Positions 1 to 63,897 of a DNA stretch of 64,000 nucleotides are shown here, one piece after another. Where the stretch lies: NCBI GenBank assembly GCA_038329865.1, contig JBBQNK010000005.1, positions 1 through 64,000 of the forward strand, given 5' to 3'. The position numbers and the translations under genes were made by a program. Each line of letters begins with the position of its first letter. Position 1 is the stretch's first letter. The notes under the pieces were generated by a model that was not told the DNA's origin, made no database searches, and saw only the letters and a program-made list of their open reading frames with translations. This DNA comes from Tepidisphaerales bacterium (lineage in GTDB: Bacteria > Planctomycetota > Phycisphaerae > Tepidisphaerales > Tepidisphaeraceae).

Positions 1-195
1 GCCCGCGTCTGCGGGTGAAGTACGATCCGTCGCTGTTCCATTGGCTGGCATCCCTTCCGGCCTCGTTGACGCGAGGCCCTTGTGTGAAGCGGATGCCAGT
101 TTTAATACATCTTCGAGATTCGCGCGCTCCTATTTAGATCCTTCGGAGTACATCAGGATGACGATTTCTTTCAAGCGAACGGGTTTGGAAACGGG

Positions 196-6973: not shown

Positions 6974-7311
6974 GTGCGGTGATTATAGAGCGGAATTCGC
7001 CTCCGGTCGCGATCGCGCACGGGCTGGAAAGTTCCGTCTCGTCAGAGCCGTCCACGCCGGTCGCTGTGCGGCCGGATTCATGTTTCGCGAGCGCCCAGAA
7101 TCCGGACGCACAGCGACCGGCGTGAATGGATCATTTCTTGACTTTCACGTATCGATCCTGAAACCACGTTGACCGATAAATCGCCGGCCAAAGCGTGGCG
7201 GTGGTGATGCCGAGAATGGCCACGATCAGCAGCACAATCACGCCGGCCCGGAAGGTGATTTGCAGCCAGCCTGATCGCATGAAAGTAGCATGGCGGAGAT
7301 CGGCGGAGAGT

Positions 7312-7821
7312 TCAAGCGGCGGAAGCGTTCGCGGGCACGGCCCCGCACTCGGGACAGCGATCGGGCGTGGCACGGAGGTCGTAGCCGCACTCTCTGCATA
7401 GACCGGAATTGTATTCGGGTCGCCTCAGCCGCCGAACAATCGCGACCAACGGAAGCAAGGCTGTTCCCGCAATCGCATACCAGATCGAAAAAGATCCTGT
7501 AAACAATTGCGTTGACCTGATTGGATTTCTGAGGGTATGCAGATGAGTCAACATGATCTGCCGAACAAAAACGCCGTAACTATGAAATCCAGAATCAAAC
7601 GGAAAGCTTCGGCCCGGGACACCGCCTTGATTTTGATTCCCGCATTTCCTGAACCAAATTTTTGAATCTACAACGGACACTCCGAACCAGATTTGTTTGT
7701 TTCCTGCAGGTGAAAATGCATACGAGCACCCACCGGGAAGACTTCCGAACTGTGCCCCACAAATGTAAATGCAAATCACAAACGATAGGACCGACGCAAT
7801 GGTAAACAGGCGTTGCTTCAC
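7312..7821 (-). CDS. two-TM membrane protein with C-terminal C4 zinc ribbon (CRECGYDLRATPDRCPECG family)
   Basis: N-terminal TM helix, a ~90-aa loop, a second TM helix, a basic stretch RRLRRP and then CRECGYDLRATPDRCPECGAVP. This is a paralogue of the ORFs at 32031-32531 and 59733-60980. Confidence 0.6.
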   Translation of the reverse strand: MKQRLFTIASVLSFVICIYICGAQFGSLPGGCSYAFSPAGNKQIWFGVSVVDSKIWFRKCGNQNQGGVPGRSFPFDSGFHSYGVFVRQIMLTHLHTLRNPIRSTQLFTGSFSIWYAIAGTALLPLVAIVRRLRRPEYNSGLCRECGYDLRATPDRCPECGAVPANASAA

Positions 7822-7938
7822 AGTTTCATCTTAATCCATCCAAACGATCTTAGATTTGATTAATTTTCGAATTTTCGATTTTCGAATCAATCCCACCCGA
7901 AACTGGATCGCTCTCTCCAAATCATCCAAGATGTTGGG

Positions 7939-9189
7939 ATGGGATTGCAGTTTAACATCGCCGTCGTCGGTTGCGGCGTGGCCGGGGCTACGGCGGCGTT
8001 GATGCTCGCCCGTCGCGGGCATCGGGTGACGTTGTTCGAGCAGTCGGAACGCGTCGGGCCGGCCGGGGCGGGGATTTTGTTGCAGCCTTCCGGCCAAGGG
8101 GTGTTGCGCGGGATCGGGTTGCTCGATGAGGTGATCGCGTCGGCCGAGCCGATTCGGGAAATTTACGCGACGACGCATCGCGGGCATGAACTGATCCGGC
8201 TGCGGTATGCGGATCTGTCGCCGAAGCGGTCCGGTTACGGCCTGCATCGCGGCGACCTTTTCACGGTGCTGCACCTCGCGATGCTCGCGGCGGGTGTCGA
8301 CCTGCGGCTGAATCAGCCGGTGACGAGCTTCGCACAAAATGCGGATCACGTTTGGCCGATCGCCGCGGACGGTGTGCAAAGCAGTCGCAGTTCATCAGGC
8401 GGGTCTGCGCCGCGTGACACGCATCGCGCGCAGCCGCAACACGAAATCAAAAAGTCGCTCGGCGAGTTTGATCTGCTGATCGCCGCTGACGGGTCGCGGT
8501 CTCGCCTGCGGGAATCGTCGGGCATCGCGCACTGGACACTGCCGTACGCGGGCGGCGCGGCGTGGGTGGTCGGGCGGAATGAATCGATCCGCGGGCAACT
8601 TCGGCAAGTCACGCACGGCACGCGCCGGCTCTGCGGGCTGCTGCCGATGGGCGGCGGGCGGTGCTCGCTCTTCTGGGGGATGCACGAGCGCGAACAGGCG
8701 GCCGTTTGGGCTGGGGAATTTTCGGCGTGGCGGGAGGATGTCGTGCGGCTCATGCCACAGGCCTCGCCGATGTTCGATCAGCTTTCCGATTTCGCCGGCG
8801 TGAAGTTCGTGCGGTATCAGCACGTTTCGATGAGTCGGTGGCACTCGGGCCGGGCCGTCTTCATCGGCGACGCGGCCCATGCAATGAGCCCGCACCTGGG
8901 CCAGGGCGTGAACCTGGCGCTGGTCGATGCGCGGGAATTGTGCACCGCGATCGACCGACAAGCGAACGTGAAGCAGGCCGTCATCGACTACGAGCGCCGC
9001 CGGCGCCGGGCGCTGGCGACTTACGCAGCCGTCACCTTTAGTGTTGCGCCATACTTCCAGTCAGTCGTGCCGCTATTAGGGTGGGGACGCGATCTCGCCC
9101 TGCCGTGGATGCCGCGCTTTAAACCGTTGCGGCAGTTGATGCTGCGAACACTTTGCGGGGGATTGGGTGCGTCGCGCGGGAGTAGGTAG
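7939..9189 (+). CDS. FAD-dependent monooxygenase (UbiH/salicylate-hydroxylase-like)
   Basis: GxGxxG motif VVGCGVAGATAA at the N-terminus, DG motif (LIAADGSRS) and GD motif (FIGDAAHAMSPHLGQG). Confidence 0.75.
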   Translation: MGLQFNIAVVGCGVAGATAALMLARRGHRVTLFEQSERVGPAGAGILLQPSGQGVLRGIGLLDEVIASAEPIREIYATTHRGHELIRLRYADLSPKRSGYGLHRGDLFTVLHLAMLAAGVDLRLNQPVTSFAQNADHVWPIAADGVQSSRSSSGGSAPRDTHRAQPQHEIKKSLGEFDLLIAADGSRSRLRESSGIAHWTLPYAGGAAWVVGRNESIRGQLRQVTHGTRRLCGLLPMGGGRCSLFWGMHEREQAAVWAGEFSAWREDVVRLMPQASPMFDQLSDFAGVKFVRYQHVSMSRWHSGRAVFIGDAAHAMSPHLGQGVNLALVDARELCTAIDRQANVKQAVIDYERRRRRALATYAAVTFSVAPYFQSVVPLLGWGRDLALPWMPRFKPLRQLMLRTLCGGLGASRGSR

Positions 9190-10636: not shown

Positions 10637-10845
10637 TCGCGTGAGTCTGACTTTTGTGGCACGGGCGGCTCGCCCTTGTGTTTGCTACACACCGAAGACC
10701 ATGGGCGAGCCGCCCATGCCACTCCGGACAACGTCATTGCAACTCGATTCCACCGATTTGGAACAGAAAATAAAAACCCGCCGGCGACTCGGAAAGTCAT
10801 CGCCGGCGGGCATCTTGTGGCTTGTTGCCGTCGCGCGTTGTTTGA

Positions 10846-11343: not shown

Positions 11344-11482
11344 TCGATGCTGCTATCATCGGACGACTTTATGAATTGCTTGTGTTAATTTGGGTAGTTT
11401 TGGTAATTGGGGTATAAATTCTTTTATAGGACGGTTTTTTGCATCTAAAACCGCACTTTCCCGGAAATCGGGCGCTCACGCC

Positions 11483-11554
11483 GGTGTCTGAGGTACTCCG
11501 AAGGCCCGGATCGGTCGGGCGAAGAATCCGGGTCTTCGGAGTACCTCAGACACC
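11483..11554. repeat. REP/MITE-like palindromic element, family A (GAGGTACTCCGAAGG core)
   Basis: Inverted repeat ggtgtctgaggtactccgaaggcccggat ... atccgggtcttcggagtacctcagacacc. The same core recurs at 22561-22639 and 39440-39635. Confidence 0.7.
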
Positions 11555-11704
11555 AGCGTGTGAAAATTTGCCCGAAAATGAGCCCCGAGTGACCCGTTTC
11601 GAGAATGTTTCACCCCGCCCAAGGATTTTCTCGACGCGTTCCACACCATGTTGTAATGTTGGATCAATCAACACCCCGGCGATCGCACACGAGGCTTTTT
11701 CACT

Positions 11705-13243: not shown

Positions 13244-13608
13244 CGAAATTCGAATGACGAAATTCGAAATTCGATTGAAATTCGAATTACAAAAAGAATT
13301 CTGGCGTACGGGCTTCAGCCCGCGCGTCAGTCCTTCAACCAAATCACACTCTCCGGTAGCGCGTCAACTTGTATTGTTCCTCTCCCGGTATTCCGGGAAA
13401 GGGTAGGGTGAGGGTTCGGATTCCCGGGCCGAACGGTATTCAAATCGAAAAGACGTTGGCCTCGGTTGCGTTCTATCAATCGCCGATCGTATGAGCAAAC
13501 CGACAGAACCCTCACCCCGCCCTCTCCCGGCGTACCGGGAGAGGGAGAAATGCGCCTGCCGATTGAACGAATTTCGTCATTCAATCGAATTTCGTCATTC
13601 GAATTTTC
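13243..13608. mobile_element. MITE-like composite element with nested inverted repeats (outer cgaaattcgaa-type arms, inner family-B arms)
   Basis: The outer IR is ttcgaatgacgaaattcgaaattcg (13243-13290) against cgaatttcgtcattcaatcgaatttcgtcattcgaa (13562-13608). The inner IR is cctctcccggtattccgggaaagggtagggtgagggttc (13378-13416) against gaaccctcaccccgccctctcccggcgtaccgggagagg (13510-13549). The element has no ORF and lies between convergent genes. Confidence 0.55.
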
Positions 13609-13616
13609 ATCCACAC

Positions 13617-15836
13617 TCAGTGCGTCGTCACATGCGCTTCTTCGTGCCCGCCGTGCACCACGCCTGCGGGTGGTTCGGAAGCCGCAATGACCTGCACTGG
13701 AATCTCCGGCGGGAGCAGCGCTTCCAGACGGCGCTGGAACGTTCCCTTGATCAAGTGATACAGCACGCCCTGCCGGCTGCTGCCGATGAGGACTCGGTCG
13801 CAGCCGTAGATGGCGGCGTTTTCCGCCATCAGCTCGGCGGCGTCGGAGCCGGTGTCGTAGATCGGGAGCACCGGCACGCCCAACGAGTGGCCCCAGTCGA
13901 GGATCTTGCTGAAGGTCCGCAACGCCGCGAGATCGGAATCGATCGTCAGGCGTTTTTCGTCGTATTTGTACGACAGATTCACCTGCCGGATGAAGCAGAC
14001 GACGAGCGTGGAGTTGGATCGCTTCGCCTCGTCCAGCGCCGAGGGCGCCAGCGCTTCCGAGCCGTACGTCCCGAGCAGGATTTTCGGCTTCAGCAGCGCC
14101 GCCGGCGTGAGCTGCTCGGCGATCGCCTGTCGCAGCAGGCTGATTCGCGGACCCTTTCGGTCGGCCAGCCACTTGGTCAGCGCCCGCGCCGTCAGGCCGA
14201 TCGCCATGACGACGATCACGAACAGCAGCGCGTGCAACTTGGTGAACGCCAGCGAAACCCAGATCGCCAGCAGCACGATGCCCAGCAGCACCATCGGAAT
14301 CTTCCGGTGCATTCGGCGTAAGCGCGGGTGCGTCGCGCAGAGCGTGACGTTGATCGCCACCGCGCCGATCACGCCGATCGCGTAGAGCGCGGCCAGCGCT
14401 TCAAGATCGTGGCTGATCAACAGCACGAGAATCGGCACGGTCGCGGCGACGACGGCCGGCACCCACGGCACGCCGAAGCGGTTGAGCTTCTGCATGAAAA
14501 CGGGCAGCTCGCCGTCGCGGGCCATGAGGTATTGCACGGAGATCATGTCGGTCAGCGCGGTGTTCGTCGCCGAGAGCAGAAGGATGCCTCCGACGATCTG
14601 CACGAGTAGCTTGCCAATGCCGAGCGTGTAGTGATCGGTATACAAGCCCGCGAGGTACGCGAGCATGTCGGCGGTGTGATGCGAGCGGTCGAGCGGGAAG
14701 ACGGCGATCATCGCAAAAGCCAGGATCACGTTAAAGATCGCGACTTCCGCCGTCACGACCCAGATCGCTTTTTTAGCCGTGTGAGCGACGGGCTTTTTCA
14801 TCACGCCGGTGAGATTGGCGATCGCCTCCACGCCCGACAGCGCCAGCACGATCGATACGAACGCGATCCACATCTCGCCGGGGCGAATGTGCGTGCTGGT
14901 ATCGAGCAGGTTGGCCCAGTGGATGTGGTGGTAATCGATCTGCGGCAGCGCGAACGCGGTGATGAGCAGCGTGATGACGATCATGCCGACGGCCGCGAAG
15001 ATCGCGAACCCGCCGGTGTGCTTCGGGCCCATCAGGTTGAACATGCCGATGCCTGCAATAGCGACAATCGCCCACAGGCCCGGCGAATCCCACTCCAGCA
15101 GCGACTCGCTCGCCTGCGGCTGCGAGTCTTCGTAGAGCTGCTGCACGTCGGCGCGGTAACTCGCGTCGGCCGAGAGCGCCTTGAGCCGTTGGTACTCCTC
15201 CTCGGTCATCGGGCGATCGAACACCACCCACTGCTTGCCTTCAAAGACGAGCATTTGCTTGTCGGTGTCGTACTTGAGCAGGGCTTTGAAGACCGGCGAC
15301 GCCAGCACTTCCGCCGGCGGAGCGGCGGCTGCGAGGTGCGGGGCGTTTTCTACATTCAACCCCGCCCCGGCGTCTTTTACTTTCGATGTTTCGGTTCCTG
15401 CAGCAGCGGCGGCGGCGCTTTCGTCGGTCTGAACCTGGTGATGGCGCGGCAGGCCGAAATAGTGGAACGCATCGAGCGCGCTCAGGCTGGCCGTGACGGT
15501 GTAGTCGGCGAAGAGCAGCAGCGCGCCGACGACCGCGAGCGTTTTACTCTTGGATTTCGCCGCCGTGTAAACGCCGCCGCCGTCGGGGTAGATGCGGCAG
15601 ATCTGCGTGTACGCCCAACCGACGGCCACGATCAGAAGGCTCATCAGCAGGATGAGGTAAAAGCTCGTCCGCCCGGCGAAGAGGAACGCGAGCCCGAGCA
15701 CGTACAGTCGACTCGTGCCCCAGTCGCCGAACAAGAGCCCCGCCGCCTGCAGCCAGGTGACGTTGCGTGGCCGTTCAGCCGCGAGCAGGGATAAAGCCTC
15801 AGGCTTTGCCTTGCCACCAGTGGGAGCGGAATGCAT
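13617..15836 (-). CDS. KUP/APC-superfamily transporter fused to C-terminal universal-stress-protein (Usp) domain, paralogue 1
   Basis: About 12 TM helices. The N-terminal GDWGTSRLYVLGLAF resembles the KUP K+ transporter signature GD(I/L)GTSPLY. The C-terminal ~140 aa form a Usp-like alpha/beta domain (VVCFIRQVNLSY...VLIGSSRQGVLYHLIKGTF). It contains an Ala/Glu-rich low-complexity insert that is absent from paralogue 2. Confidence 0.7.
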   Translation of the reverse strand: MHSAPTGGKAKPEALSLLAAERPRNVTWLQAAGLLFGDWGTSRLYVLGLAFLFAGRTSFYLILLMSLLIVAVGWAYTQICRIYPDGGGVYTAAKSKSKTLAVVGALLLFADYTVTASLSALDAFHYFGLPRHHQVQTDESAAAAAAGTETSKVKDAGAGLNVENAPHLAAAAPPAEVLASPVFKALLKYDTDKQMLVFEGKQWVVFDRPMTEEEYQRLKALSADASYRADVQQLYEDSQPQASESLLEWDSPGLWAIVAIAGIGMFNLMGPKHTGGFAIFAAVGMIVITLLITAFALPQIDYHHIHWANLLDTSTHIRPGEMWIAFVSIVLALSGVEAIANLTGVMKKPVAHTAKKAIWVVTAEVAIFNVILAFAMIAVFPLDRSHHTADMLAYLAGLYTDHYTLGIGKLLVQIVGGILLLSATNTALTDMISVQYLMARDGELPVFMQKLNRFGVPWVPAVVAATVPILVLLISHDLEALAALYAIGVIGAVAINVTLCATHPRLRRMHRKIPMVLLGIVLLAIWVSLAFTKLHALLFVIVVMAIGLTARALTKWLADRKGPRISLLRQAIAEQLTPAALLKPKILLGTYGSEALAPSALDEAKRSNSTLVVCFIRQVNLSYKYDEKRLTIDSDLAALRTFSKILDWGHSLGVPVLPIYDTGSDAAELMAENAAIYGCDRVLIGSSRQGVLYHLIKGTFQRRLEALLPPEIPVQVIAASEPPAGVVHGGHEEAHVTTH

Positions 15837-16464
15837 AGGTCGAATCGCTTTCGATTGGAGCGATCTGACGCGACCATCCGTCACGGTTCACAACGAACTT
15901 GCGTTCGTGGCTACCGACGGATTCGGATCTTCACGTCAAAAAGCCCAGACGTTCAACACCCTCAACGATTTTCATCGTTGAAACGCGGAAACGTCTTCAT
16001 CGCACAGCGCTGGCTCGGAAGGTGATCAACACTGAATGTGCTGATCCACAGAGGCTTCGCCTCTGCACAGTGGAGCTTGCGTTGCGCCCTTTCACAGGCC
16101 TACGGGGTTAGCTGACGGGCTAGGGCTTGAAAGTGCCCCGGGACTTTTGTGAGTCCCTTAGCCCCCGGTGAGCAGTAACTTCCTTCTGCTCACCCTTGGG
16201 TTCCCCGCGTCGCACCATCGGGCACGACCTCGGCGGTCACATAACACGGCTGATAGCGTGACACGTTTTTGGGAGATGTCAATGGTCTTTTTGCACACGC
16301 GTTTTGCACATTCGCTCAATCGTTTGCAAGGGCGGGAGTTATGAACAATCTTGGGGAAAAGTTGAGTTTCGGGGCTCGAATTTCGGGTTTCAGGGATGAT
16401 GGATTTGATCCACTCAGGACTCGATACTCGCAAACCCAGACCTCAGGACCCGGAGCCCCAGGAG

Positions 16465-18474
16465 TCACTTCACCGGCTCCGTCTCTTTCAACTTGTCGGC
16501 GGCTTCGGTGTCGATTTGTGCTTGCGTCGGCTCGGTCGTGTGGACGACTTCGACCTGCATGTCGGGCGGCAGGAGCGATTCGAGCTTTCGCTGGAAGCTC
16601 CCCTTGATCAGGTGGTGCAGCGAGCTTCGCCGGCTTGAGCCAATCAGCACTTTATCCACGCCGTTGATGGCGGCGGTCTCGGCGATCAGCTCCGCCGAGT
16701 TCGGGCCGGTGTCGTACATCGGGATGATCGGCACGCCGAAACGGTGGCCGAGATCGAGGAAGTCGACGAACAGCGCCTGGGCGGCCGGGTCGGTGTCGAG
16801 CGTGAGCGTGACGTCGCTCTCGACCTTATACGACAGCGCGACTTCGCGCACGTAGCAGACGACGAGCGCGGCATTGAGCGATTTGGCCAGTTCCAGCGCC
16901 GGCGTGGCCAGCCGGGAAGAGCCGGCGGTCGAGAGCAGGATCTTCGGCTTCATCAGCGCTTCGGGCGTGAGTTGCTCGACGATCGCCTGGCGCAGCAGCG
17001 AAGGCTTGGGCCGTTTCGTCGCTGCGAAGCGCGTGAGCTGCCGCGCCGTCAGGCCGACGACCATCACGATCGACACGAAGATCAGCGCGTGAATCTTGGT
17101 GTACGCGAGCGTCGCCCACACGCCGATCAGCAGCAGGCCGATCGCCAGCATGAAAATCTTGCGCCGCACCTTGCGCAAGCGCGGGTGGAACGCCGTCAGC
17201 AAACAGTTGATTGAGACCGCCCCGACAATGCCGATCGCGTAGAGCTGCGCGAGCTTTTCAAGATCGTGAAAGAACAGCAGCACGGCAGCGGGGACGATCG
17301 TCGCAATCACGCAGCCGATCCACGGCGAGCCGAAGCTGTTGAGCTTCTGCAGCACCTGCGGGAGCTCGCTGTCGCGGCTCATGACGTACACGGTGCTCAT
17401 CAGTGCGCCGATGGCGGTGTTGGTCGCGCTCAGCAGCAGCACGCCGCCGACGATTCGCACCGGCCATTCGCCCCACGGGCCGACGTAATGCCCGGCGAGG
17501 AACGCGAGCATGTCTTCCTTGTGCCCTTCGCGTCCCAGGCCCGACGTGGAGACCATGATTAGCGCCAGCAGCAGGTTGAAGACCGCCACCTCGGCCGCCA
17601 CGAGCCAGATCGATTTGCTCGCGGTTTTGTAGACCGGCTTGTGCATCACGCCGGTGAGATTGGCGATCGCCTCCACGCCTGATAGCGCAAGCACCACCGC
17701 CACGAACGCCTGCCACATGTCCAGCGGCGGCTGGTGTAAAGTGCCGACGTTTATCTCCGACCATTTCAGCTGCGGCAGCGCAAAGAGCGTGACCAGGAGC
17801 GTGATGGCGATCATCCCCACCGCCGCCATGATCGCCGGGCCGGCCGTGTGCTTGGGGCCGAGGAGATTCAGTGCGCCGATCAGAAAAATCGCGAAGATCG
17901 CCCACAATCCGGGGCTGTCCCAGTGCCACAACGTCGGCGTTTTGAAGGATTTCCTCTCCAGCACCTTGGCGGGCTCGCCACTGGGCTGGGTTTCCTCGAT
18001 TTTCACGACGACGGTCTCGACCTTGTCGGATTCGAGCCGCACGTCGTCGCCGGCGTCTTCTTCAGCCACCAGCGCCGCGCGGTGCTCACCAAGCCCGAAG
18101 TAGTGGAACGCTTCCACGGCGCTGAGCGAAGCGGTGATCGTGTAGTCGGAAAATAAGAGCAGCGCCCCTACCACGCCGAGCAGCGCATTGCGATGCCTCG
18201 CCGCGGTGTAAACGCCGCCGCCGTCGGGGTAGATTCGGCAGACCTGCGTGTACGCCCAGGCGACAAGCAGAATGAGAATGCTCATCGCCGCGATGAGGAA
18301 AAAGCTGCTCCGCCCCGCGACCAGGAACGCCAGGCCCAGCACGTACAGCCGGCTGGTGCCCCAATCGCCGAACAGCAGACCGGCCGCCCCGAACCATCCG
18401 AGATTGCGCGGGCGCTTGCTGGCCAGAAGGGAAAGGGCTTGCGGTCGATGCGGATCGGCGTGTGAATCGCTCAT
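16465..18474 (-). CDS. KUP/APC-superfamily transporter fused to C-terminal Usp domain, paralogue 2
   Basis: It shares near-identical N-terminal blocks (GDWGTSRLYVLGLAF, CRIYPDGGGVYTAA) with the ORF at 13617-15836 and has the same domain order. Confidence 0.7.
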   Translation of the reverse strand: MSDSHADPHRPQALSLLASKRPRNLGWFGAAGLLFGDWGTSRLYVLGLAFLVAGRSSFFLIAAMSILILLVAWAYTQVCRIYPDGGGVYTAARHRNALLGVVGALLLFSDYTITASLSAVEAFHYFGLGEHRAALVAEEDAGDDVRLESDKVETVVVKIEETQPSGEPAKVLERKSFKTPTLWHWDSPGLWAIFAIFLIGALNLLGPKHTAGPAIMAAVGMIAITLLVTLFALPQLKWSEINVGTLHQPPLDMWQAFVAVVLALSGVEAIANLTGVMHKPVYKTASKSIWLVAAEVAVFNLLLALIMVSTSGLGREGHKEDMLAFLAGHYVGPWGEWPVRIVGGVLLLSATNTAIGALMSTVYVMSRDSELPQVLQKLNSFGSPWIGCVIATIVPAAVLLFFHDLEKLAQLYAIGIVGAVSINCLLTAFHPRLRKVRRKIFMLAIGLLLIGVWATLAYTKIHALIFVSIVMVVGLTARQLTRFAATKRPKPSLLRQAIVEQLTPEALMKPKILLSTAGSSRLATPALELAKSLNAALVVCYVREVALSYKVESDVTLTLDTDPAAQALFVDFLDLGHRFGVPIIPMYDTGPNSAELIAETAAINGVDKVLIGSSRRSSLHHLIKGSFQRKLESLLPPDMQVEVVHTTEPTQAQIDTEAADKLKETEPVK

Positions 18475-20674: not shown

Positions 20675-20692
20675 GTGTTAATCATAAGGGGA

Positions 20693-20800
20693 AATGCAGA
20701 ATGCGGAATGCAGATTGCAGAATGAAATTCGCCGCCTTCCATTCTGCATTCCGCATTCTGCATTCCGCATTTCGCCCTCCCTCTGCATTCCGCATTCTGC
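20693..20800. repeat. long hairpin built from tandem heptamers (GCATTCT/GCATTCC) in inverted orientation
   Basis: gcagaatgcggaatgcagattgcagaatg - spacer - cattctgcattccgcattctgcattccgc, then a further ctgcattccgcattctgc. It lies in the 150-bp divergent region between pgsA and the ORF at 20824. Confidence 0.6.
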
Positions 20801-20823
20801 TTTTCCTCCGTAGAATCCCCCGC

Positions 20824-21552
20824 ATGCCCGACGTACAAACGCTCTGCGAAATCGGCTCTGAAGAATTGCTCGAGATGCGTTACCTCGAATCGATCCTAAC
20901 GTTCGAGCAGGCCGAGAAGATCGCGCTGAATAATAAGGATTGGGACACGATCGCCCGGCTGTACATGCCGCTGCAGGAAGCCCGCCGGCAAGTCCGCCAG
21001 CGCTGCGGCGAAGGGATCGTGCAGCTCGATCTGCTCGCCACATCGCCCAGCGACCAGCCGGACGGCGTCGCGATTATTCAGCGACTGCCCCACGGCCAAT
21101 TACTCGTGGCGGGCTGGGCGTCGATCGCGCCCGCGATTCAACTCCGGCGACTCGCCAGGGAGAAAAAACTCTACGTGGAAACGTATCTCGCCGCGGTTTA
21201 CCCCGTCGGCGAAGGACGCGTCGTCGCGATCGTGCCAACGGCCGACGTGAAATTGCCCAACGACTCGCCGCGATCGATCGACAAGCTCATCAATCTACTG
21301 CCGCTGCATTCGATCGTCTTGCCGATCAGCGAGCTGCCAAAAGGCCCGCGGCTCGGCACGCCGGAGACGTACGCCGAAACAATGGCGATCTGGGAACGCC
21401 TGGCCGCCCCCTTCCTGGCGGCGGCGGATATGCAGGTCGATCCGGTCCAGAAGATTCATGGCTACCGGGCTACAATCGCCGTGGATTATGCGTGTGAGTT
21501 GGCGCATCAGAAACTATCCGATGTGGCCAGGGAATTGGGAAGAAAAAGATAG
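20824..21552 (+). CDS. hypothetical protein
   Basis: A 242-aa ORF starting at the first ATG after the heptamer hairpin. I did not recognise any motif. Codon usage is consistent with its neighbours. Confidence 0.45.
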   Translation: MPDVQTLCEIGSEELLEMRYLESILTFEQAEKIALNNKDWDTIARLYMPLQEARRQVRQRCGEGIVQLDLLATSPSDQPDGVAIIQRLPHGQLLVAGWASIAPAIQLRRLAREKKLYVETYLAAVYPVGEGRVVAIVPTADVKLPNDSPRSIDKLINLLPLHSIVLPISELPKGPRLGTPETYAETMAIWERLAAPFLAAADMQVDPVQKIHGYRATIAVDYACELAHQKLSDVARELGRKR

Positions 21553-21627
21553 GGATTTGGTATTTGGTATTGGGTATTTGGTTTGATCCTGATACCAAAT
21601 ACCCAATACCCAATACCAAATACCCAC
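21552..21627. repeat. long perfect hairpin built from tandem heptamers (GGTATTT/GGTATTG)
   Basis: gggatttggtatttggtattgggtatttggt - ttgatcctga - taccaaatacccaataccaaatacccac. AT-richer than the flanks. It lies between two co-directional genes. Confidence 0.65.
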
Positions 21628-21640
21628 AACCAGAGAAACC

Positions 21641-22534
21641 ATGTCCATCTTCGGTTCCAACCAATACAACTCGCAACCTTCCCGCGGCATCAGCCTCCGC
21701 TTCATCATCGGCCTGGTGATTGCCGGCATCGGCGTCGTCTCGTATCTCACGCATACCGAGATCAATCCCGTCACCGGCGAAAAGCAGCACATTTCGATCT
21801 CGGCCGACCAGGAGATCGCGCTCGGCCTGCAGGCGGCTCCGCAGATGGCGGCGGAGATGGGCGGCGTGGTCGACCAGCGCGACCCGCGCGAGCAGAACGT
21901 GCAGCGCATCGGCCAGCAACTGCTGCAACGCAGCGACGCGGGAAAGAGCCCGTACACCGGCTATTTTCATTTCAACCTCTTGGCCGACCCGCAGACGATC
22001 AACGCCTTCAGCCTGCCCGGCGGGCAGGTGTTCATCACCGTGGCGCTTTACGACCGGCTGGAGAATGACGCGCAGGTGGCCGGCGTGCTCGGTCACGAGA
22101 TCGGCCACGTCATCGGCCGGCACGGCGCGGAAAACATGGCGACCGGCAACCTCGGCAACATGATCGTGACGGCCGTCGCCGTCGGCGCCAGCGACCGCAA
22201 CAACGGCCAATTCGCCGCTGCCGCTGCCGCCATGGCGAACCAGATGTTCCAGCTCAAATACTCCCGCTCCGACGAATTCGAAGCCGACCATTTCGGCCTG
22301 CAGTTCATGAGCCAGGCGGGTTACGACCCTTCACAGATGCGCCGCGTGATGGAAATTTTGAAACAATCCGCGAGAGGCTCCGGCGGCTCGGCGATCTTTC
22401 AAACGCACCCGGACCCGGACGCACGCATCGACCGGATCGATCAATTTTTGAAAGAAACGTATCCCAGCGGCGTGCCGGGGAATCTGACGACGGGGAATGC
22501 ATTGCGAGCGTCACGGCAGCGCGACGTGGAGTGA
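21641..22534 (+). CDS. M48 family zinc metallopeptidase (LoiP/BepA-like, single N-terminal TM)
   Basis: HEIGHVIGRH (HExxH) and the downstream EFEADHFG glutamate motif. Confidence 0.75.
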   Translation: MSIFGSNQYNSQPSRGISLRFIIGLVIAGIGVVSYLTHTEINPVTGEKQHISISADQEIALGLQAAPQMAAEMGGVVDQRDPREQNVQRIGQQLLQRSDAGKSPYTGYFHFNLLADPQTINAFSLPGGQVFITVALYDRLENDAQVAGVLGHEIGHVIGRHGAENMATGNLGNMIVTAVAVGASDRNNGQFAAAAAAMANQMFQLKYSRSDEFEADHFGLQFMSQAGYDPSQMRRVMEILKQSARGSGGSAIFQTHPDPDARIDRIDQFLKETYPSGVPGNLTTGNALRASRQRDVE

Positions 22535-22560
22535 ATCAGCTCATCATACTAAAAGACAAT

Positions 22561-22639
22561 CGTCATCCTGAGGTACTCCGAAGGATCTAGCCCACTCGCG
22601 CGAATAAGCTAGATCCTTCGGAGTACCTCAGGATGACGA
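22561..22639. repeat. REP/MITE-like palindromic element, family A
   Basis: cgtcatcctgaggtactccgaaggatctagc ... gctagatccttcggagtacctcaggatgacg is a near-perfect 31-bp inverted repeat. Confidence 0.75.
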
Positions 22640-22751: not shown

Positions 22752-24995
22752 TCAATTCCCATTGTTCTTACCGGGCTTGATCTCTCCCGTTCGCGACGCC
22801 AGCGCCGCCGGGATCGCCGGCGGGGCTTCCATCGAGTCCATGATCTGCTTGCTCATGCGATCGGCGAACTCCTTCACCGCGGCGGTGTCGGCCGAGTCGG
22901 TCATCTGGAAACCGCTCTTCTCCGCCACGAGCAAACTCATGAGCGTGCCCATCAGGCCCGTGCTCGCGGCGCCGTCGCCGTTGCTGGAACCTGCGCCCGG
23001 CGACATGAAGACGCGCTCTGGCACGAGCGGCTGGCTGCTCTTGCTCAGGTGCTCGGCCACGAGCGCCAATGCGTACAGCCGTGGGTCGCCGTAGCTAGCG
23101 ATTTTCCGCATCAGCACCGCCGACTCGCTCAAGCCGACCTGCATGAGCCGCTGACCTTCACCCTTGCCGGCCAGCACGCGCTGCTCGGACTCGGCCTTGG
23201 CGGTGACAACCATCTGCTCGGCCTGCCGCTTGGATTGCTCCAGCTGCGCCTCGGCCATCACGATGTTCTGCTGCGCCTGCTTTCTCGCGCGGGCCAAATC
23301 GGCGTCGCCCTGGTTCTCGGCGATGCGAATCTGCACCTGCGAGTTGGTGAGCTCCGCCTGCTTGGCGGCGATGGCTTCTGCTTCCTTCAGGCTCTTGAGC
23401 TTTTCGCTGGCCGCACGTTGGCGGTCGAAGGTTTCAAGCTGTTCGAACGCCAGTTGCCGCATCCGGAGCTGTTCGAGGAGCGTTTCGATCTTGCCGGATT
23501 TTTCGTCCGTCTCCGGCTTGCCGATCAGCACGTCCACGCATTCGATATCGAACTCGAGGAACCGCGCACGCAAGGTGTCGCGGGCTTCGGTCTGCATCGC
23601 GTCGCGCTGCTGGAGCAATTCCAACATCGTGCGCTTGTGAGCCACGTCGCGGAAGAAGGCGCTCAGCATCGGGTCGAGCGTTTGCGTGATCAATCGCTTG
23701 ACGTCGCCGAAGCGCTGGATGACGGACGGCGCTTTCATGTAGTCGATGTGCACGACGACACTCAGCGGCAGCATCGGCTCGTACGCGTCTTTGGTGACGA
23801 TGTCGATCGTCTTCAACCCTTCATCGTACCGGTGCGATTCCGATCGCCCGGTGATCCAGTGCAGGACGAAGTTGGTCGTCGGCACGAGCACGGTGTGCCC
23901 CGCGTAGGTGTTGAACGGGTACTTTCCCGGGCCGAGCGGTTTTTCCCACACGCCGCGCTCGCCGCGCACGACGCGCTCGCCGTGGCGGAATTTATCGCCG
24001 GAAACGTCGGTCCCTACCGGCCCGTGGTAGCTGATGACGACGCCGGCGTAGCCGATCGGCACGAGTGTTTTCGGGCTCATCTCGATCGTGGCGAACCAGC
24101 GGTTGATAAAATACGTGCCATCGGTCAGCGGCACGTACTGCCTGCCGCGTCGTCCGCCGGCGCGGAGGAATGCTTCGGGATCCTGGAAGCTGTTGTGATA
24201 GTTGATGTCGCTCGCATCACTGCCGACGCTCGGCGCGATGATTTCGCCCGGCGCGAGGCTCGGGCCGTCATGCACGGTGGCGATGCCGATGGAGTCGATG
24301 ACCAGGTCCTTGCCAGGCGTGAGCGGGTCGCCGATTTTCATCAGCCCGCCGATGACGACGGGATCGAACCCGCCGATCTCCTTCAGCTCGTTCTGCCAGC
24401 CCATGAGGGTCTGCAGCTCGGACTTGCCGTGCATATCGAGGCGGTAAACGAAGTCTTCGGTAACGACGACGAACGCCGCCGTGTTGATCGCATAAACGCC
24501 TTCGCGAAGGATCGCCCGCTGTCGGCCGCGCTGCCCGATGACTCCGCCGCCGGCGGTTTTTGGCGATTGGCCGAAGAATGTGCGTGTGTCCTGAAAGTTA
24601 TTGCTCGGCGTGACGCGCCCGAGCGTCTGCCCGGGCATGAGCGACTCGCCGTCGCGTGCGTACACGTACCCAATCTTCCCCTGCGCAACCGTCACCAGCG
24701 GCACGGTATGAATCTTGTACTGCCACCGCCAATACCCCACGTGAATGCCGCCGCGCAGCAGCTCCACTTGATAACCGGCCTCGCCGCTGAGCGCGATGAT
24801 GTGCCCTTCCGTGATCGACCCGCCGCCGGACCAGAGCTTCTCCACAATGCCCACGCGGTTGTTGGAGATGTACCGCAGGCCGATGGCGAAACTCACGAGG
24901 ATCAGCGCAACGATCAACCCCACGACCCAAAATGCGATCGTGAACAGGAACGAAAAATCGGGCATTTCGTTCGAAGCAAGAAATGACGCAAGCAT
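22752..24995 (-). CDS. flotillin-like SPFH/band-7 domain protein with a large Gly-rich insertion and C-terminal coiled coil
   Basis: N-terminal TM helix, an SPFH-like core, a long Ala/Gln/Glu-rich coiled-coil segment (AEAIAAKQAELTNSQVQIRIAENQGDADLARARKQAQQ...) that is typical of flotillins, and a ~250-aa Gly-rich middle insertion. Confidence 0.6.
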   Translation of the reverse strand: MLASFLASNEMPDFSFLFTIAFWVVGLIVALILVSFAIGLRYISNNRVGIVEKLWSGGGSITEGHIIALSGEAGYQVELLRGGIHVGYWRWQYKIHTVPLVTVAQGKIGYVYARDGESLMPGQTLGRVTPSNNFQDTRTFFGQSPKTAGGGVIGQRGRQRAILREGVYAINTAAFVVVTEDFVYRLDMHGKSELQTLMGWQNELKEIGGFDPVVIGGLMKIGDPLTPGKDLVIDSIGIATVHDGPSLAPGEIIAPSVGSDASDINYHNSFQDPEAFLRAGGRRGRQYVPLTDGTYFINRWFATIEMSPKTLVPIGYAGVVISYHGPVGTDVSGDKFRHGERVVRGERGVWEKPLGPGKYPFNTYAGHTVLVPTTNFVLHWITGRSESHRYDEGLKTIDIVTKDAYEPMLPLSVVVHIDYMKAPSVIQRFGDVKRLITQTLDPMLSAFFRDVAHKRTMLELLQQRDAMQTEARDTLRARFLEFDIECVDVLIGKPETDEKSGKIETLLEQLRMRQLAFEQLETFDRQRAASEKLKSLKEAEAIAAKQAELTNSQVQIRIAENQGDADLARARKQAQQNIVMAEAQLEQSKRQAEQMVVTAKAESEQRVLAGKGEGQRLMQVGLSESAVLMRKIASYGDPRLYALALVAEHLSKSSQPLVPERVFMSPGAGSSNGDGAASTGLMGTLMSLLVAEKSGFQMTDSADTAAVKEFADRMSKQIMDSMEAPPAIPAALASRTGEIKPGKNNGN

Positions 24996-25118: not shown

Positions 25119-25769
25119 GGTCCGTCCCGCTTCAGCGGGACAGACTCATCTCTGATATCTCTTGTAAGGAACATGAGACAAAAACCCGTTTCGGTTCTTT
25201 GCGAATTCAACGAACTTCTCCAGATCGATCAACGCATGGGTATCAGGATACGTGCTCCACTCCTTTACGAGTCGCCCGCGCACGGCTTGTAGCAACGTAT
25301 GCCGATAAGCAGCCCGACACTGCTTCTCATCGCGAATACAACCATCAAAGTATTCGCGACCTTTCATATCTCGCCAGAAATTCTGGCGACGCTCGGGCAA
25401 CAAATCGTTGACGAGCTTCGCAACTGAACCGTGAAGTCGTTGGATGAATTTTTCGAGATTTGTCCCCGCATGGAGAAATCCTATCGAGTGATAGTGATTA
25501 TTCATCAATGTGGTTACCGCGAGTTCGTATCCGAATTCTTTGGAATAGTGATCGAAGCGATTCCAAAAGATCGCGCGAGCTTCGGGTATTTCGAACGCGG
25601 GATATTTCTCGCGACATCGAGCGGTGATGAAATAGACCTGCTCATCAACGTACCAATGCTCAAAGCGGTGTTTTCCGTCCCGGTACTCGGGATAATCCCG
25701 CGAGCCTTTGATGATGCGCTTGTGCAAAGCGCCCCTAGGTGCATGTCCCGCTAAAGCGGGACGGACCAA
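25119..25769 (-). mobile_element. REP-flanked IS200/IS605-like (RAYT-like) tyrosine transposase unit
   Basis: The ORF (25146-25769) is flanked by mutually inverted 23-bp hairpin-forming repeats: ggtccgtcccgcttcagcgggac at 25119-25141 and gtcccgctaaagcgggacggacc at 25745-25767. This is the REP-RAYT-REP arrangement. Confidence 0.5.
25146..25769 (-). CDS. putative REP-associated tyrosine transposase (IS200-like Y1 HuH superfamily)
   Basis: A 207-aa basic protein with an HuH-like motif (NNHYHSIGF) and a downstream conserved Tyr region (AAYRHTLLQ). The size and the flanking inverted hairpins fit RAYT. The assignment is by motif only. Confidence 0.45.
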   Translation of the reverse strand: MVRPALAGHAPRGALHKRIIKGSRDYPEYRDGKHRFEHWYVDEQVYFITARCREKYPAFEIPEARAIFWNRFDHYSKEFGYELAVTTLMNNHYHSIGFLHAGTNLEKFIQRLHGSVAKLVNDLLPERRQNFWRDMKGREYFDGCIRDEKQCRAAYRHTLLQAVRGRLVKEWSTYPDTHALIDLEKFVEFAKNRNGFLSHVPYKRYQR

Positions 25770-25784
25770 AGAAAACCAGAACTC

Positions 25785-28327
<2,543 letters not shown>

Positions 28328-32058: not shown

Positions 32059-32531
32059 GGGACGGCGCCGCATTCAGGACAGCGATCGGGCGTGGCGCGG
32101 AGGTCGTAGCCGCAGTCTTGGCAGAGTTCGCCGAGCCTTCCCCCATGTCGATTTCGAAAATTGAATACGATTGCGGTTTCAATTGCCGCGAGCAATTCGA
32201 TCGGCCACGAAAGATGAAGATAGAAATTAGCTCCGTCTGGAGTTGTCCATCCCCATGGCAGGCGCCAACTTAAAGGACAGAGTTCAATGACATAACGGGA
32301 ATCACGAAGCTCGCGACTGCAATTCCATTGAGCTGGGTTTTGCGGACATGCCTCAGACCAGAAAAGAACATGGCCGTGAGTCAATAGGATTCCTCGCTCC
32401 GTGAAATTGACTGTGTTTTGCGAAATGGTGTAGGTGTATCGCAGGCTATCCACCCAAAGCCCGCCGAGCGCGAGCATCATCATGAAAATGCCCACGCCCG
32501 CGATCTTCAGCCGTCTGCCGCGCTTTTTCAT
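32031..32531 (-). CDS. two-TM membrane protein with C-terminal C4 zinc ribbon (CQDCGYDLRATPDRCPECG family)
   Basis: An internal ATG at 32531 gives MKKRGRRLKIAGVGIFMMMLALGG (TM1), a ~90-aa loop, TM2, NFRNRHGGR and CQDCGYDLRATPDRCPECGAVP. The longer ORF upstream of this Met is a GC-frame artefact that overlaps the PhyH gene. Confidence 0.6.
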   Translation of the reverse strand: MKKRGRRLKIAGVGIFMMMLALGGLWVDSLRYTYTISQNTVNFTERGILLTHGHVLFWSEACPQNPAQWNCSRELRDSRYVIELCPLSWRLPWGWTTPDGANFYLHLSWPIELLAAIETAIVFNFRNRHGGRLGELCQDCGYDLRATPDRCPECGAVPETKTGQAA

Positions 32532-39439: not shown

Positions 39440-39635
39440 GAGAATTCGTCATTCTGAGAGGGTATTTAAAAGATCCCCCACAGCGTCATCCCGAGGTACT
39501 CCGAGGGATCTCGGAAGGACCGAAGTCGCTGGATATCCCGAGATTCCTCGGAGTACCTCGGAATGACGGAGTTTTATAAATTGAGCTCTGGAGACTTTTA
39601 AGACACCCTTTGAGGTGCTCCGAAGGATGACGAGC
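39440..39635. repeat. cluster of REP/MITE-like family A copies (one full palindrome plus degenerate half-copies)
   Basis: The full copy is cgtcatcccgaggtactccgagggatctcgg ... ccgagattcctcggagtacctcggaatgacgg (39485-39570). Partial copies are cgtcattctgagagg and tgaggtgctccgaaggatgacgag. Confidence 0.7.
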
Positions 39636-40990: not shown

Positions 40991-41140
40991 GATCGGAATA
41001 TCGTAACGGATCGGGGAATGAATTCGAGCGAGAGAATCATTTGAGTTTTGCGGCTTTCGTGGCACGGGCGGCCCGCCCGTGTTTTGCATCAGCTGAAAAC
41101 CATGGGCGAGCCGCCCATGCCACTTCAAACTGACCACGAC

Positions 41141-51315: not shown

Positions 51316-51375
51316 GGGCTACCAGCCCATGTCATGGTGCGCACCGGGTCACGGGCTGGTAGCCCGTGCTACGCT

Positions 51376-55377: not shown

Positions 55378-55447
55378 AATTCAGTCGGCAGCGGGCAGCG
55401 GGCAGCGGGCAGTTCATACTGCCCGCTGCCCGCTGCCATCTGCCCGC

Positions 55448-56488: not shown

Positions 56489-56557
56489 GGCGTTGGGCGT
56501 TGAGCGTTAGGCGTTGGGGGTCGATTGATCCCTAACGCCTAACGCCAAACGCCTAAC
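56489..56557. repeat. long hairpin built from tandem heptamers (GGCGTTG/AGCGTTA) in the nuoH-nuoJ spacer
   Basis: ggcgttgggcgttgagcgttaggcgttggggg - tcgattgatc - cctaacgcctaacgccaaacgcctaac. The loop shares ttgatcc with the hairpin at 21552-21627. Confidence 0.65.
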
Positions 56558-58068: not shown

Positions 58069-58159
58069 AGGACTAAGGACTTAGGACTAAGGACTTAGTG
58101 AAGAAAAAATCGCTCCCGCATTTCTTTCACTAAGTCCTAAGTCCTGAGTCCTAAGTCCT
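58069..58159. repeat. long hairpin built from tandem heptamers (AGGACTA/AGGACTT)
   Basis: aggactaaggacttaggactaaggacttagtgaagaaa ... tttctttcactaagtcctaagtcctgagtcctaagtcct. It overlaps the last codons of the PCD gene and precedes the nuoH start. Confidence 0.65.
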
Positions 58160-60676: not shown

Positions 60677-60680
60677 TCCG

Positions 60681-63800: not shown

Positions 63801-63897
63801 ACGCTCGCCCCCTTCGGCGTATTGACGCCCGACAAGACAATCGCCCCCGGCCCGAGTAAGATTCCCGGTTCACTAAAGCTCTCAAAGGACTCGTAAC

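What the first reader, a model, noticed from the sequence alone, without database searches (positions are those of the whole stretch)
25119..25769. RAYT-like HuH tyrosine transposase flanked by mutually inverted REP hairpins, inserted immediately 3' of gyrB
The 207-aa ORF has an HuH-like HYH motif and a conserved Tyr region. It is bracketed by two 23-bp sequences that are reverse complements of each other, ggtccgtcccgcttcagcgggac and gtcccgctaaagcgggacggacc, each itself a hairpin. This is the canonical REP-RAYT-REP organisation. The upstream REP lies within the first codons of the ORF. The flanking hairpin differs from the three other repeat families in the window, which implies several independent REP/RAYT or MITE systems in this genome.
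Basis: partly seen in the sequence, partly recalled or inferred. Interest (0 to 1): 0.6.

Follow-up and report, generated by a model that had tools for sequence, protein, structure and literature searches.

The report
Tyrosine-less RAYT-like gene with flanking hairpins
This is a single-copy, long-resident relative of the RAYT "domesticated transposases", bracketed by its two cognate DNA hairpins downstream of gyrB; this copy has lost the catalytic tyrosine and the hairpins occur nowhere else in the 64-kb window, so it is a fairly ordinary and probably inactive member of a known kind.

Summary
A minus-strand ORF (25146-25769) encodes an HUH/Y1 protein: Pfam Y1_Tnp 26.8 bits (cut-off 23), and the best fold match is E. 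coli RAYT 4ER8. It is bracketed by two inverted copies of GGTCCGTCCCGCTT(C/T)AGCGGGAC, which match at 22 of 23 bases.

1. Homologues start at residue 15 (TTG at 25727), so the upstream hairpin lies 17 nt before the start, not inside the CDS.
2. The residue that aligns with the catalytic Tyr115 of E. coli RayT is His157 here. It is Tyr in 116 of 119 relatives.
3. The position after gyrB is conserved in relatives that are 54-73% identical, so this is not a recent insertion.
4. The hairpin has no third copy in the window.

Across 84 homologous loci, hairpins of this type (variable, covarying stem; conserved TTCA loop; 5' GG foot) sit at the gene ends about 130 times more densely than elsewhere. 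Distal DNA shows only background density.

Verdict: a divergent RAYT-family locus in REP-RAYT-REP layout, vertically inherited and probably catalytically dead in this genome. No evidence was found for a dispersed REP population. I rate it a new member of a known kind, of moderate-low interest.

The parts
25146..25727 (-). Most likely CDS of the RAYT-like HUH/Y1 protein: 193 aa, TTG start at 25727-25725, TGA stop at 25148-25146.
   Evidence: In alignments of 22 and 119 homologues the family Met aligns to residue 15. In the closest relative with context (L123) a GTG sits at this exact position, and the reading frame upstream is broken by a 1-nt indel. Pfam Y1_Tnp scores 26.8 bits and NCBIfam REP_Tyr_transpos 62.3 bits. 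The AF2 model has pLDDT 87.5 and its top fold hit is 4ER8.
25745..25767 (-). Upstream REP-like hairpin. On the gene strand it reads GGTCC foot + GTCCCGC-TTTA-GCGGGAC. It lies 17 nt after the gyrB stop codon and 17 nt before the TTG start.
   Evidence: It is 26/27 identical in L123, while the neighbouring intergenic bases have diverged.
25119..25141 (+). Downstream REP-like hairpin, inverted relative to the upstream copy. On the + strand it reads GGTCC foot + GTCCCGC-TTCA-GCGGGAC. Its stem starts 4 nt after the stop codon.
   Evidence: A 26-nt stretch covering it is identical in L123.
25488..25496 (-). HuH motif, His92-Tyr93-His94 in 207-aa numbering.
   Evidence: Read. H92 is His in 118/119 and H94 in 119/119 relatives. 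The motif aligns with the H-M-H of E. coli RayT.
25299..25301 (-). Codon CAT = His157, at the position of the catalytic tyrosine.
   Evidence: hhalign places it opposite Tyr115 of E. coli RayT, and Gln161 opposite Asn119. The position is Tyr in 116/119 relatives and in every metagenomic locus where the region could be read. L123 has TAC here. The independent Logan contig L001 is identical over 2050 bp.
25287..25289 (-). Codon CAA = Gln161. Invariant in the family; partner of the catalytic Tyr in the Y-x-x-x-Q motif.
25732..25736 (-). Purine-rich AGGGG, a candidate ribosome-binding site 4 nt upstream of the TTG start.
   Evidence: Read. A GGGGGA run sits at the corresponding place in L123. This is inference only.
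25785..28327 (-). gyrB, the upstream neighbour. It is read as two ORFs because of a frameshift near 27880.
   Evidence: gyrB is also the upstream neighbour in L123, L125, L128, L154, L205 and L206.
22752..24995 (-). SPFH/Band-7 protein gene, the downstream neighbour.
   Evidence: Pfam Band_7. The same gene follows the RAYT-like gene in L123 and L205.

Best explanation
The locus is a chromosomal, single-copy member of a large and tightly conserved family of RAYT-like HUH/Y1 proteins, with its two cognate hairpins. The family is probably from Planctomycetota.

In the family as a whole, the protein most likely binds the flanking hairpins in single-stranded DNA. It would recognise the conserved TTCA loop and the 5' GG foot, and would cut and rejoin DNA with the HuH metal site, Tyr157 and Gln161, as E. 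coli TnpA_REP does with REPs. That step is inferred from homology.

The unit has been inherited vertically downstream of gyrB for a long time. It is not a recent insertion.

In this genome the nucleophile is replaced (Tyr157 to His), so the protein is probably unable to form the covalent DNA intermediate. It is therefore either a DNA-binding relic or on its way to becoming a pseudogene. Sister loci show the same trend: one has lost a HuH histidine and is frameshifted, and another is frameshifted.

The hairpins here are the two gene-linked copies only. No dispersed REP population is visible.
For: Shown:
- Protein identity. Y1_Tnp is above the Pfam cut-off. REP_Tyr_transpos is the only sizeable NCBIfam hit, and all 22 tested relatives match it. 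The model is confident and the best PDB match is 4ER8, RAYT bound to a REP hairpin (E 1.8e-7, TM 0.71 on the target), followed by IS608 and ISDra2 TnpA.
- Catalytic residues. HuH and Q161 are conserved. Position 157 aligns with RayT Y115 and is Tyr in 116/119 relatives but His here. Y155 is replaced by Phe in 5 relatives, so it is unlikely to be the nucleophile.
- Hairpins are linked to the gene. In 84 loci, 129 hairpins of the type lie within 250 nt of the gene ends, against 10 in 418 kb of distal DNA. The background in unrelated loci is 15 in 848 kb.
- The hairpin is a conserved structure. In 90 aligned hairpins all 9 stem pairs show double changes, and the covariation score is 0.648 against 0.193 in shuffles. 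The loop letters T, T and A are invariant, and the 5' G (column 4) is at least 90% conserved.
- Orientation is consistent: the TTCA form is on the sense strand upstream and on the antisense strand downstream.
- Vertical inheritance. gyrB-RAYT linkage is seen in L123, L125, L128, L154, L205 and L206, and SPFH lies downstream in L123 and L205. dN/dS against L123 is about 0.06.
- Decay in the sister loci. L205 has QHH in place of HYH plus a frameshift, and L206 has a C-terminal frameshift.
- No third copy of the hairpin exists in the window.
Against: - The ORF is intact, and its divergence from L123 is overwhelmingly synonymous. The protein may therefore still be functional without Tyr157.
- A single substitution could be a sequencing error, although an independent assembly agrees.
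A dispersed REP population elsewhere in the genome is not excluded.
- The hhalign match to E. coli RayT is statistically weak (probability 5%). The residue equivalence rests on motif register and on the fold match.
- Binding and cleavage of the hairpins are inferred, not shown.
- The frameshifts in L205 and L206 could be metagenome assembly errors.
Confidence: 0.64

Rival explanations
1. Active, canonical REP/REPIN-RAYT system. The protein mobilises a genome-wide population of this hairpin, and the two flanking copies are just the nearest members.
For: The REP-RAYT-REP anatomy is present. In many relatives the flanks carry REPIN-like doublets, for example L003, L005, L006 and L138. A few extra copies identical to the flank lie 0.4-2.8 kb away in L003, L130 and L137. 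Hairpins of the GG-foot/TTCA type also occur without a nearby homologue in three Phycisphaerae genomes.
Against: There is no third copy in 64 kb, even with 3 mismatches allowed. In 370 kb of distal DNA from 39 loci there are only 5 own-type copies, none further than 3 kb from the gene. The generic hairpin density in distal DNA equals the background. The nucleophile Tyr is missing in this copy.
Confidence: 0.12
2. The protein has a domesticated, non-catalytic role. The family's real partner is its pair of private flanking hairpins, and the protein acts as a sequence- and structure-specific DNA (or RNA) binder, for example in autoregulation. In that case loss of the tyrosine would be tolerated.
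For: Hairpins are private to the gene in 36 of 39 loci. The upstream hairpin ends 17 nt before the start, next to the putative ribosome-binding site, and the downstream hairpin abuts or overlaps the stop codon in many loci. Purifying selection is strong and synteny is long-lived. The ORF is intact despite Y157H. The hairpins are perfectly conserved between the window and L123 while neighbouring bases diverged.
Against: Tyr157 is kept in 97% of relatives and the HuH histidines and Gln161 in 99-100%. This indicates that catalysis is selected in the family at large. Sister loci with lesions look like decay rather than a new function. No direct evidence for regulation exists.
Confidence: 0.15
3. 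The hairpins are transcription terminators or mRNA-stabilising stem-loops for gyrB and for the ORF, and have nothing to do with the protein.
For: Both are stable G+C-rich stem-loops at gene ends. Classical REPs are known to have such side roles (background text in PMC3733652).
Against: No T-run follows either hairpin, and no terminator-like site was called. In L123 and L206 an extra ORF separates gyrB from the hairpin, which stays next to the RAYT start. The same loop, foot and inverted orientation accompany the gene in dozens of unrelated genomic contexts. There is no Rfam match.
Confidence: 0.06
4. An autonomous IS200/IS605-type insertion sequence that recently landed behind gyrB.
For: It carries a Y1_Tnp domain and the class-1-like Y-x-x-x-Q spacing, and it is a compact 649-bp unit bounded by hairpins.
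Against: There is one copy in the window and one per homologous locus. Synteny is conserved at 54-73% protein identity. The end hairpins are inverted rather than direct. No tnpB gene is present. The fold is closer to RAYT than to IS608 TnpA. The surroundings are housekeeping genes.
Confidence: 0.03

Closest known systems
E. coli RayT / TnpA_REP (YafM, PDB 4ER8) and the REPtron arrangement; class 2 TnpA_Y1 of Quentin et al. 2018 (PMC6006769); RAYTs of Bertels et al. 2017 (PMC5581495)
   Same: HUH/Y1 fold, with 4ER8 as the best structural match. It has a HuH motif and the Tyr helix in the same register. It is a single-copy gene bracketed by inverted hairpins with an unpaired 5' foot, and its inheritance is vertical and syntenic. 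More distant sequence relatives carry NHYH together with the classical YIHxNP motif.
   Different: The score is below the NCBIfam equivalog cut-off (62 against 80 bits). No PDB hit was found by sequence profile. The Y motif is Y-R-Y-T-L-x-Q (Gln, no Pro) instead of Y-I-x-x-N-P. The foot is GG-N3 (GGTCC here), not GTAG. The loop is a conserved TTCA. No dispersed REP population was detected. This copy has His in place of the catalytic Tyr.
IS200/IS605 TnpA (IS608, ISDra2)
   Same: Same fold, and the same Y-x-x-x-Q spacing of nucleophile and Gln. These enzymes also recognise hairpins near the element ends (established knowledge; PMC6006769).
   Different: The fold match is weaker than to RAYT (E about 1e-4 against 1.8e-7). 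The gene is single-copy and syntenic, the hairpins are inverted, and it has an N-terminal extension (the EHW motif) and a conserved C-terminal tail VPYKRY.
Class 3 TnpA_Y1 of Quentin et al. 2018 (found in Planctomycetes, Acidobacteria and Proteobacteria)
   Same: It is found in the same phylum, has a Q-type Y motif, has extended N-terminal conservation, and is flanked by 'atypical' secondary structures. The authors describe it as intermediate between IS and REPtron.
   Different: The published motifs are NHVH, W[TA], YV[VI]xEQ (Y----Q) and a CnGA foot. Here they are NHYH, FW[RS], YRYTLxQ (Y---Q) and a GG foot. Class 3 hairpins can reach about 600 copies per genome, whereas here none was seen beyond the flanks.

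Membership tests
HUH Y1 transposase superfamily (Pfam PF01797 Y1_Tnp) | Profile match at or above the Pfam gathering score | tested here: met
   26.8 bits against a cut-off of 23, covering residues 48-134. 14 of 22 relatives match at E<=0.01.
HUH Y1 transposase superfamily (Pfam PF01797 Y1_Tnp) | HuH metal-binding motif on the central strand | tested here: met
   H92-Y93-H94 lies on strand 92-99 of the model and aligns with the HMH of E. coli RayT.
HUH Y1 transposase superfamily (Pfam PF01797 Y1_Tnp) | Catalytic tyrosine four residues before a Gln/Asn on the C-terminal helix | tested here: not met
   The window copy has His157-T-L-L-Gln161. The family has Tyr157 in 116/119. The feature is met by the family but not by this copy.
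HUH Y1 transposase superfamily (Pfam PF01797 Y1_Tnp) | TnpA-like fold | tested here: met
   Foldseek against the PDB: 4ER8, 2A6M, 2XMA and others at probability 1.00.
RAYT / TnpA_REP | NCBIfam NF047646 (equivalog) at or above its cut-off | tested here: not met
   62.3 bits against a cut-off of 80. All 22 tested relatives match the model, with a best E-value of 4.2e-20; scores relative to the cut-off were reported only for the window protein.
RAYT / TnpA_REP | Gene flanked by REP hairpins in inverted orientation | tested here: met
   Here. In the family: 66 of 84 loci have at least one and 40 have at least two hairpins of the type near the gene, in a consistent orientation.
RAYT / TnpA_REP | The flanking hairpin is repetitive and dispersed in the host genome (REP/REPIN population) | tested here: inconclusive
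   No further copy was found in the 64-kb window. In relatives there are 5 copies in 370 kb of distal DNA, all within 3 kb of the gene.
RAYT / TnpA_REP | Single copy, vertically inherited, housekeeping-like distribution (Bertels et al. 2017) | tested here: met
   There is one copy in the window. gyrB linkage is conserved across relatives 54-73% identical. dN/dS is 0.06.
RAYT / TnpA_REP | Y-I-x-x-N-P motif and a GTAG-type 5' foot on the REP | tested here: not met
   The motif is Y-R-(Y/H)-T-L-x-Q-A, and the foot is GGTCC, or GG-N3 in the family.
IS200/IS605 insertion sequence | Multiple copies, variable insertion sites, and end hairpins in the same orientation | tested here: not met
   The gene is single-copy, its location is syntenic, and the hairpins are inverted.
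Class 3 TnpA_Y1 (Quentin et al. 2018) | NHVH / W[TA] / YV[VI]xEQ motifs and a CnGA foot on the flanking structures | tested here: not met
   The motifs as published differ from the family consensus. No class 3 sequence was available for a direct comparison.

The most novel reading that the evidence does not exclude
A large, slowly evolving family of HUH proteins, probably from Planctomycetota, whose conserved partner is a private pair of covarying hairpins at its own gene ends rather than a dispersed REP population. On this reading the module works in cis on its own locus (autoregulation, or a locus-specific single-stranded-DNA transaction). The window copy, with an intact ORF and mostly synonymous divergence from its closest relative but no nucleophile, would then show that the retained function does not need DNA cleavage.
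Probability: 0.15. Interest if true: 0.6.

Novelty: new member of a known kind. Interest (0 to 1): 0.35.

Why it matters
Why hosts keep RAYTs is an open question. This family supplies many natural examples in which the gene and its two flanking hairpins are conserved together and covary, with little or no REP amplification. It also supplies copies such as this one that have lost a catalytic residue. That makes it usable material for asking whether RAYTs are maintained for a host function or for REP mobilisation. For genome annotation, the practical points are these: the family falls just under the NCBIfam cut-off, the correct start is 14 codons inside the longest ORF, and this copy should be flagged as probably inactive.

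Tried and rejected
1. I scanned public genomes for CCGTCCCGCTNNAGCGGGAC to find the source genome and count its REPs. None carried a homologue of the protein or any window sequence, and none had the GGT foot except one with a different loop.
2. A sequence-profile search of the PDB with the family alignment did not find any transposase. The link to RAYT had to come from the fold search and from hhalign against E. coli RayT.
3. I looked up the exact protein to obtain the 138-kb NCBI contig. Only a 2-kb Logan contig was returned, and cluster look-ups gave no names or accessions. The organism is therefore inferred, not shown.
4. The terminator/promoter consensus scan and Rfam gave nothing.
5. A search for paralogues or other RayT-like ORFs in the window found none.
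6. A literature search for a description of this family in Planctomycetota found nothing beyond class 3 of Quentin et al., whose motifs do not fit.
7. I considered and rejected a recent IS insertion, because synteny is conserved. I also rejected Y155 as an alternative nucleophile, because it is Phe in five relatives.

Full report
**What is in the sequence**

On the minus strand, ORF 25146..25769 (207 aa) lies 17 nt downstream of the gyrB stop codon (25785-25787) and upstream of an SPFH/Band-7 gene. The 23-mer GGTCCGTCCCGCTTCAGCGGGAC occurs at 25119-25141 on the + strand. It occurs again, with one loop mismatch (TTTA), at 25745-25767 on the - strand. Nothing else in the 64 kb matches with up to three mismatches, against 0.00 expected by chance. 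The inverted arms extend to 30 nt at 90% complementarity. Each copy folds as single-stranded DNA into a stem of at least 7 bp with a 4-nt loop, at -8.1 to -11.6 kcal/mol and z-scores of -3.1 to -4.6.

**The protein**

Pfam Y1_Tnp scores 26.8 bits against a cut-off of 23. NCBIfam REP_Tyr_transpos scores 62.3 bits, below its equivalog cut-off of 80. All 22 tested relatives match the same model, with a best E-value of 4.2e-20.

A search of 5.8 billion proteins returned 1755 relatives. Most are 193-200 aa long and 55-63% identical to the query. JGI names many of them 'REP element-mobilizing transposase RayT', and one NCBI entry comes from a Lacipirellulaceae MAG. At the level of 50%-identity representatives the family is compact, with 58 representatives at E<=1e-30. 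Its more distant neighbours carry NHYH together with the classical RAYT motif YIHxNP.

An AlphaFold model built on 119 sequences is confident (pLDDT 87.5). Its best PDB match is 4ER8, the E. coli RAYT bound to a REP hairpin (E 1.8e-7, TM 0.71 on the target). IS608 and ISDra2 TnpA follow. A sequence profile alone did not reach any solved transposase.

**Start codon**

In alignments of 22 and of 119 homologues, the family methionine aligns with residue 15 of the ORF. In the closest relative with context (L123, 73% identical) a GTG sits exactly where the window has TTG (25727). Upstream of it, the two sequences differ by a 1-nt indel, so the extension is not coding. The CDS is therefore most likely 25146..25727 (193 aa). 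The upstream hairpin then ends 17 nt before the start, next to a GGGG run. It is not within the first codons.

**Catalytic residues**

The HuH motif is H92-Y93-H94, invariant or nearly so in the family. A profile alignment with E. coli RayT (fetched) puts the family's position 157 opposite RayT Tyr115, and Gln161 opposite Asn119. These are the nucleophile and its partner as named in PMC6006769. The hhalign score is weak, but the register IRDE...Y-x-x-x-(Q/N)-x-V-(R/K)-H-G is convincing and agrees with the fold match.

Position 157 is Tyr in 116 of 119 relatives, and in every metagenomic locus where the region could be read. The window has His: codon CAT at 25299-25301, against TAC in L123. An independent Logan assembly is identical over 2050 bp. 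The neighbouring Tyr155 is Phe in five relatives, so it is not a plausible substitute nucleophile. This copy has therefore most likely lost the ability to form the covalent phosphotyrosine intermediate. ISDra2 Y132F, a mutant of the equivalent tyrosine, is among the fold hits.

**The hairpins across the family**

I fetched 84 loci with homologues. Almost all have hairpins of one type at both gene ends: a variable stem of 6-11 bp, closing G-C pairs, a loop reading TTCA (less often TTTA or TTAA), and an unpaired 5' foot that begins with GG.

- Within 250 nt of the gene ends there are 129 perfect hairpins of this type.
- In 418 kb of distal DNA in the same loci there are 10.
- Unrelated genomic loci hold 15 in 848 kb.
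- The enrichment at the gene ends is therefore about 130-fold, and distal DNA is at background.

In 90 aligned, distinct hairpins all nine stem pairs show changes on both sides. There are 221 compensated cells against 73 in shuffles, the covariation score is 0.648 against 0.193, and slid controls score 0.15 or less. One caveat applies: my hairpin finder required the four loop-proximal pairs to be paired, so only the outer pairs are an unbiased test. Pairs 9-24 and 10-23 are nevertheless paired in 98-99% of sequences, with four to five pair types each.

Orientation is consistent. The TTCA form lies on the sense strand upstream and on the antisense strand downstream. Many loci carry REPIN-like doublets on each side, whereas the window has singlets. 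Between the window and L123 the 26-27 nt covering each hairpin are identical or nearly so, while the adjacent intergenic bases have diverged. This is the signature of a structure recognised by a protein, and it matches the REP-RAYT-REP layout.

**Are they REPs, that is, repetitive?**

In the window, no. For each of 39 loci with at least 2 kb of distal DNA (370 kb in all), I searched for the locus's own 24-mer with up to 4 mismatches. Only 5 copies turned up, in 3 loci, and all lay within 3 kb of the gene. An E. coli-like density would have given dozens. A sparse population of the order of one per 100 kb is not excluded.

Bertels et al. 2017 already report RAYT groups whose flanking 16-mers are rare in the genome, so this is not unprecedented.

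**History of the locus**

gyrB is also the upstream neighbour in L123, L125, L128, L154, L205 and L206, whose proteins are 54-73% identical to the window's. The SPFH gene follows in L123 and L205. In L123 and L206 an extra small ORF separates gyrB from the hairpin, which stays next to the RAYT start. Other clades appear to sit at other conserved upstream positions, judging from the shared upstream flanks printed. dN/dS against L123 is about 0.06, with dS saturated. The gene is thus an old resident and not a fresh insertion.

Within the gyrB-linked clade, three of the four closest members (the window, L123, L205, L206) carry lesions:

- Y157H in the window.
- QHH in place of HYH, plus a frameshift, in L205.
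- A C-terminal frameshift in L206.

Elsewhere in the family, several copies have in-frame stops (L158/L160 and L170/L173/L175) or a disrupted reading frame (L165). This looks like ongoing decay in some lineages.

**Mechanism**

The following is shown: the fold, the motifs, the physical linkage of gene and hairpins, stem covariation with a conserved loop and foot, synteny, and loss of the Tyr.

The following is inferred. The family protein binds the hairpins in single-stranded DNA and cuts and rejoins nearby, as TnpA_REP does. The window protein can at most bind.

Alternative roles for the hairpins as terminators are unlikely. No T-run follows them, nothing was called by the consensus scan, and there is no Rfam match.

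**Comparison with known families**

The closest known family is RAYT/TnpA_REP (class 2 of Quentin et al.). The locus differs from it in five ways:

- a Q-type Y motif without Pro;
- a GG-N3 foot instead of GTAG;
- a conserved TTCA loop;
- a score below the NCBIfam cut-off;
- no dispersed population seen.

The published class 3 (found in Planctomycetes, Acidobacteria and Proteobacteria) has different motifs and a CnGA foot. I file this locus as a divergent member of the RAYT kind, not as an equivalog of E. coli RayT.

**Verdict**

However, the locus is a long-resident, probably inactive copy with only its two private hairpins, not evidence of an active REP system. I rate it of moderate-low interest. 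The family-wide 'private hairpin' pattern is the part worth a specialist's attention.

Noticed in passing
window 27860-27900 (gyrB, minus strand): gyrB is split into two overlapping ORFs (27737..28327 and 25785..27887). The frame shifts right after ...DDSAYK, at an AAA run. One extra A would restore [12 protein letters not shown]. For an essential gene this is most likely a homopolymer assembly error.
   Followed up: partly
window 135-166, 11477-11560, 22558-22639, 39484-39568: This is a dispersed palindromic repeat family with core CCTTCGGAGTACCTCAGGATGACG: 4 matches with up to 3 mismatches, against 0 expected. It is mostly arranged as inverted doublets with arms of 31-40 nt. It looks more like a real REPIN-type population than the hairpin of this finding. 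No cognate RAYT is in the window.
   Followed up: partly
window 13374-13417, 13501-13560, 63678-63724, 63752-63809: A second palindromic repeat family (…CCCTCTCCCGGCGTACCGGGAGAGGG…) is present as two pairs of inverted copies about 50 kb apart.
   Followed up: no
window 10651-10682, 41054-41085, 51304-51373: A third short repeat family (CTTTCGTGGCACGGGCGGCCCGCCC…) is present. At 51308-51373 it forms a perfect-spacing palindrome.
   Followed up: no
window 20686-20803, 21546-21651, 55387-55444, 56492-56557, 58069-58159: These are intergenic palindromes built from short tandem units (GCATTCTGCATTCC, GGTATTTGGTATT, GGCAGCG, GGCGTT, AGGACTTAGGACT). Each is a long hairpin made of low-complexity repeats.
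   Followed up: no
window 7334-7401, 32059-32126, 60270-60961: A 54-68 nt coding-looking segment is repeated five times: three tandem copies about 320 nt apart at 60270-60961, and single inverted copies at 7334 and 32059. The Cys codon pattern (TGCCC..TGCGG…TGTCC.GAGTGCGG) suggests a recurring zinc-ribbon-like module in several genes.
   Followed up: no
L205 236-810 and L206 1737-2330 (sister loci downstream of gyrB): In both, the RAYT-like gene is frameshifted near the C-terminus, and the conserved tail VPYKRYxR continues in another frame. L205 also has QHH instead of HYH, and its upstream hairpin has lost one G. These could be pseudogenes or assembly errors.
   Followed up: partly
L158/L160, L170/L173/L175, L165: These further family members have in-frame stop codons or a disrupted frame, so pseudogenisation recurs in the family.
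   Followed up: no
L003 7675-7698: A copy of that locus's own REP (GCGAGCGTCGCTTCAGCGACGCGG) lies inside the gene called as CstA (6093-8249), 2 kb from the RAYT-like gene. It could be a REP inside a coding region or a merged gene call.
   Followed up: no
L029, L033, L037, L046, L055, L061, L024 (Deltaproteobacteria MAG Meg22_1214_Bin_234) and several Candidatus Angelobacter, Terracidiphilus, Desulfobacteraceae and Saccharothrix loci: The exact core CCGTCCCGCTNNAGCGGGAC recurs on many contigs of single unrelated genomes (at least 7 contigs in one deltaproteobacterial MAG). Similar GC-rich hairpins therefore form true repeat populations elsewhere, with no homologue of this protein within 4 kb.
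   Followed up: partly
window 13617-15884 and 16465-18474: These are two adjacent paralogous amino-acid permease genes, with 73-78% identical stretches spaced about 2.6-2.9 kb apart. They are a tandem duplication.
   Followed up: no
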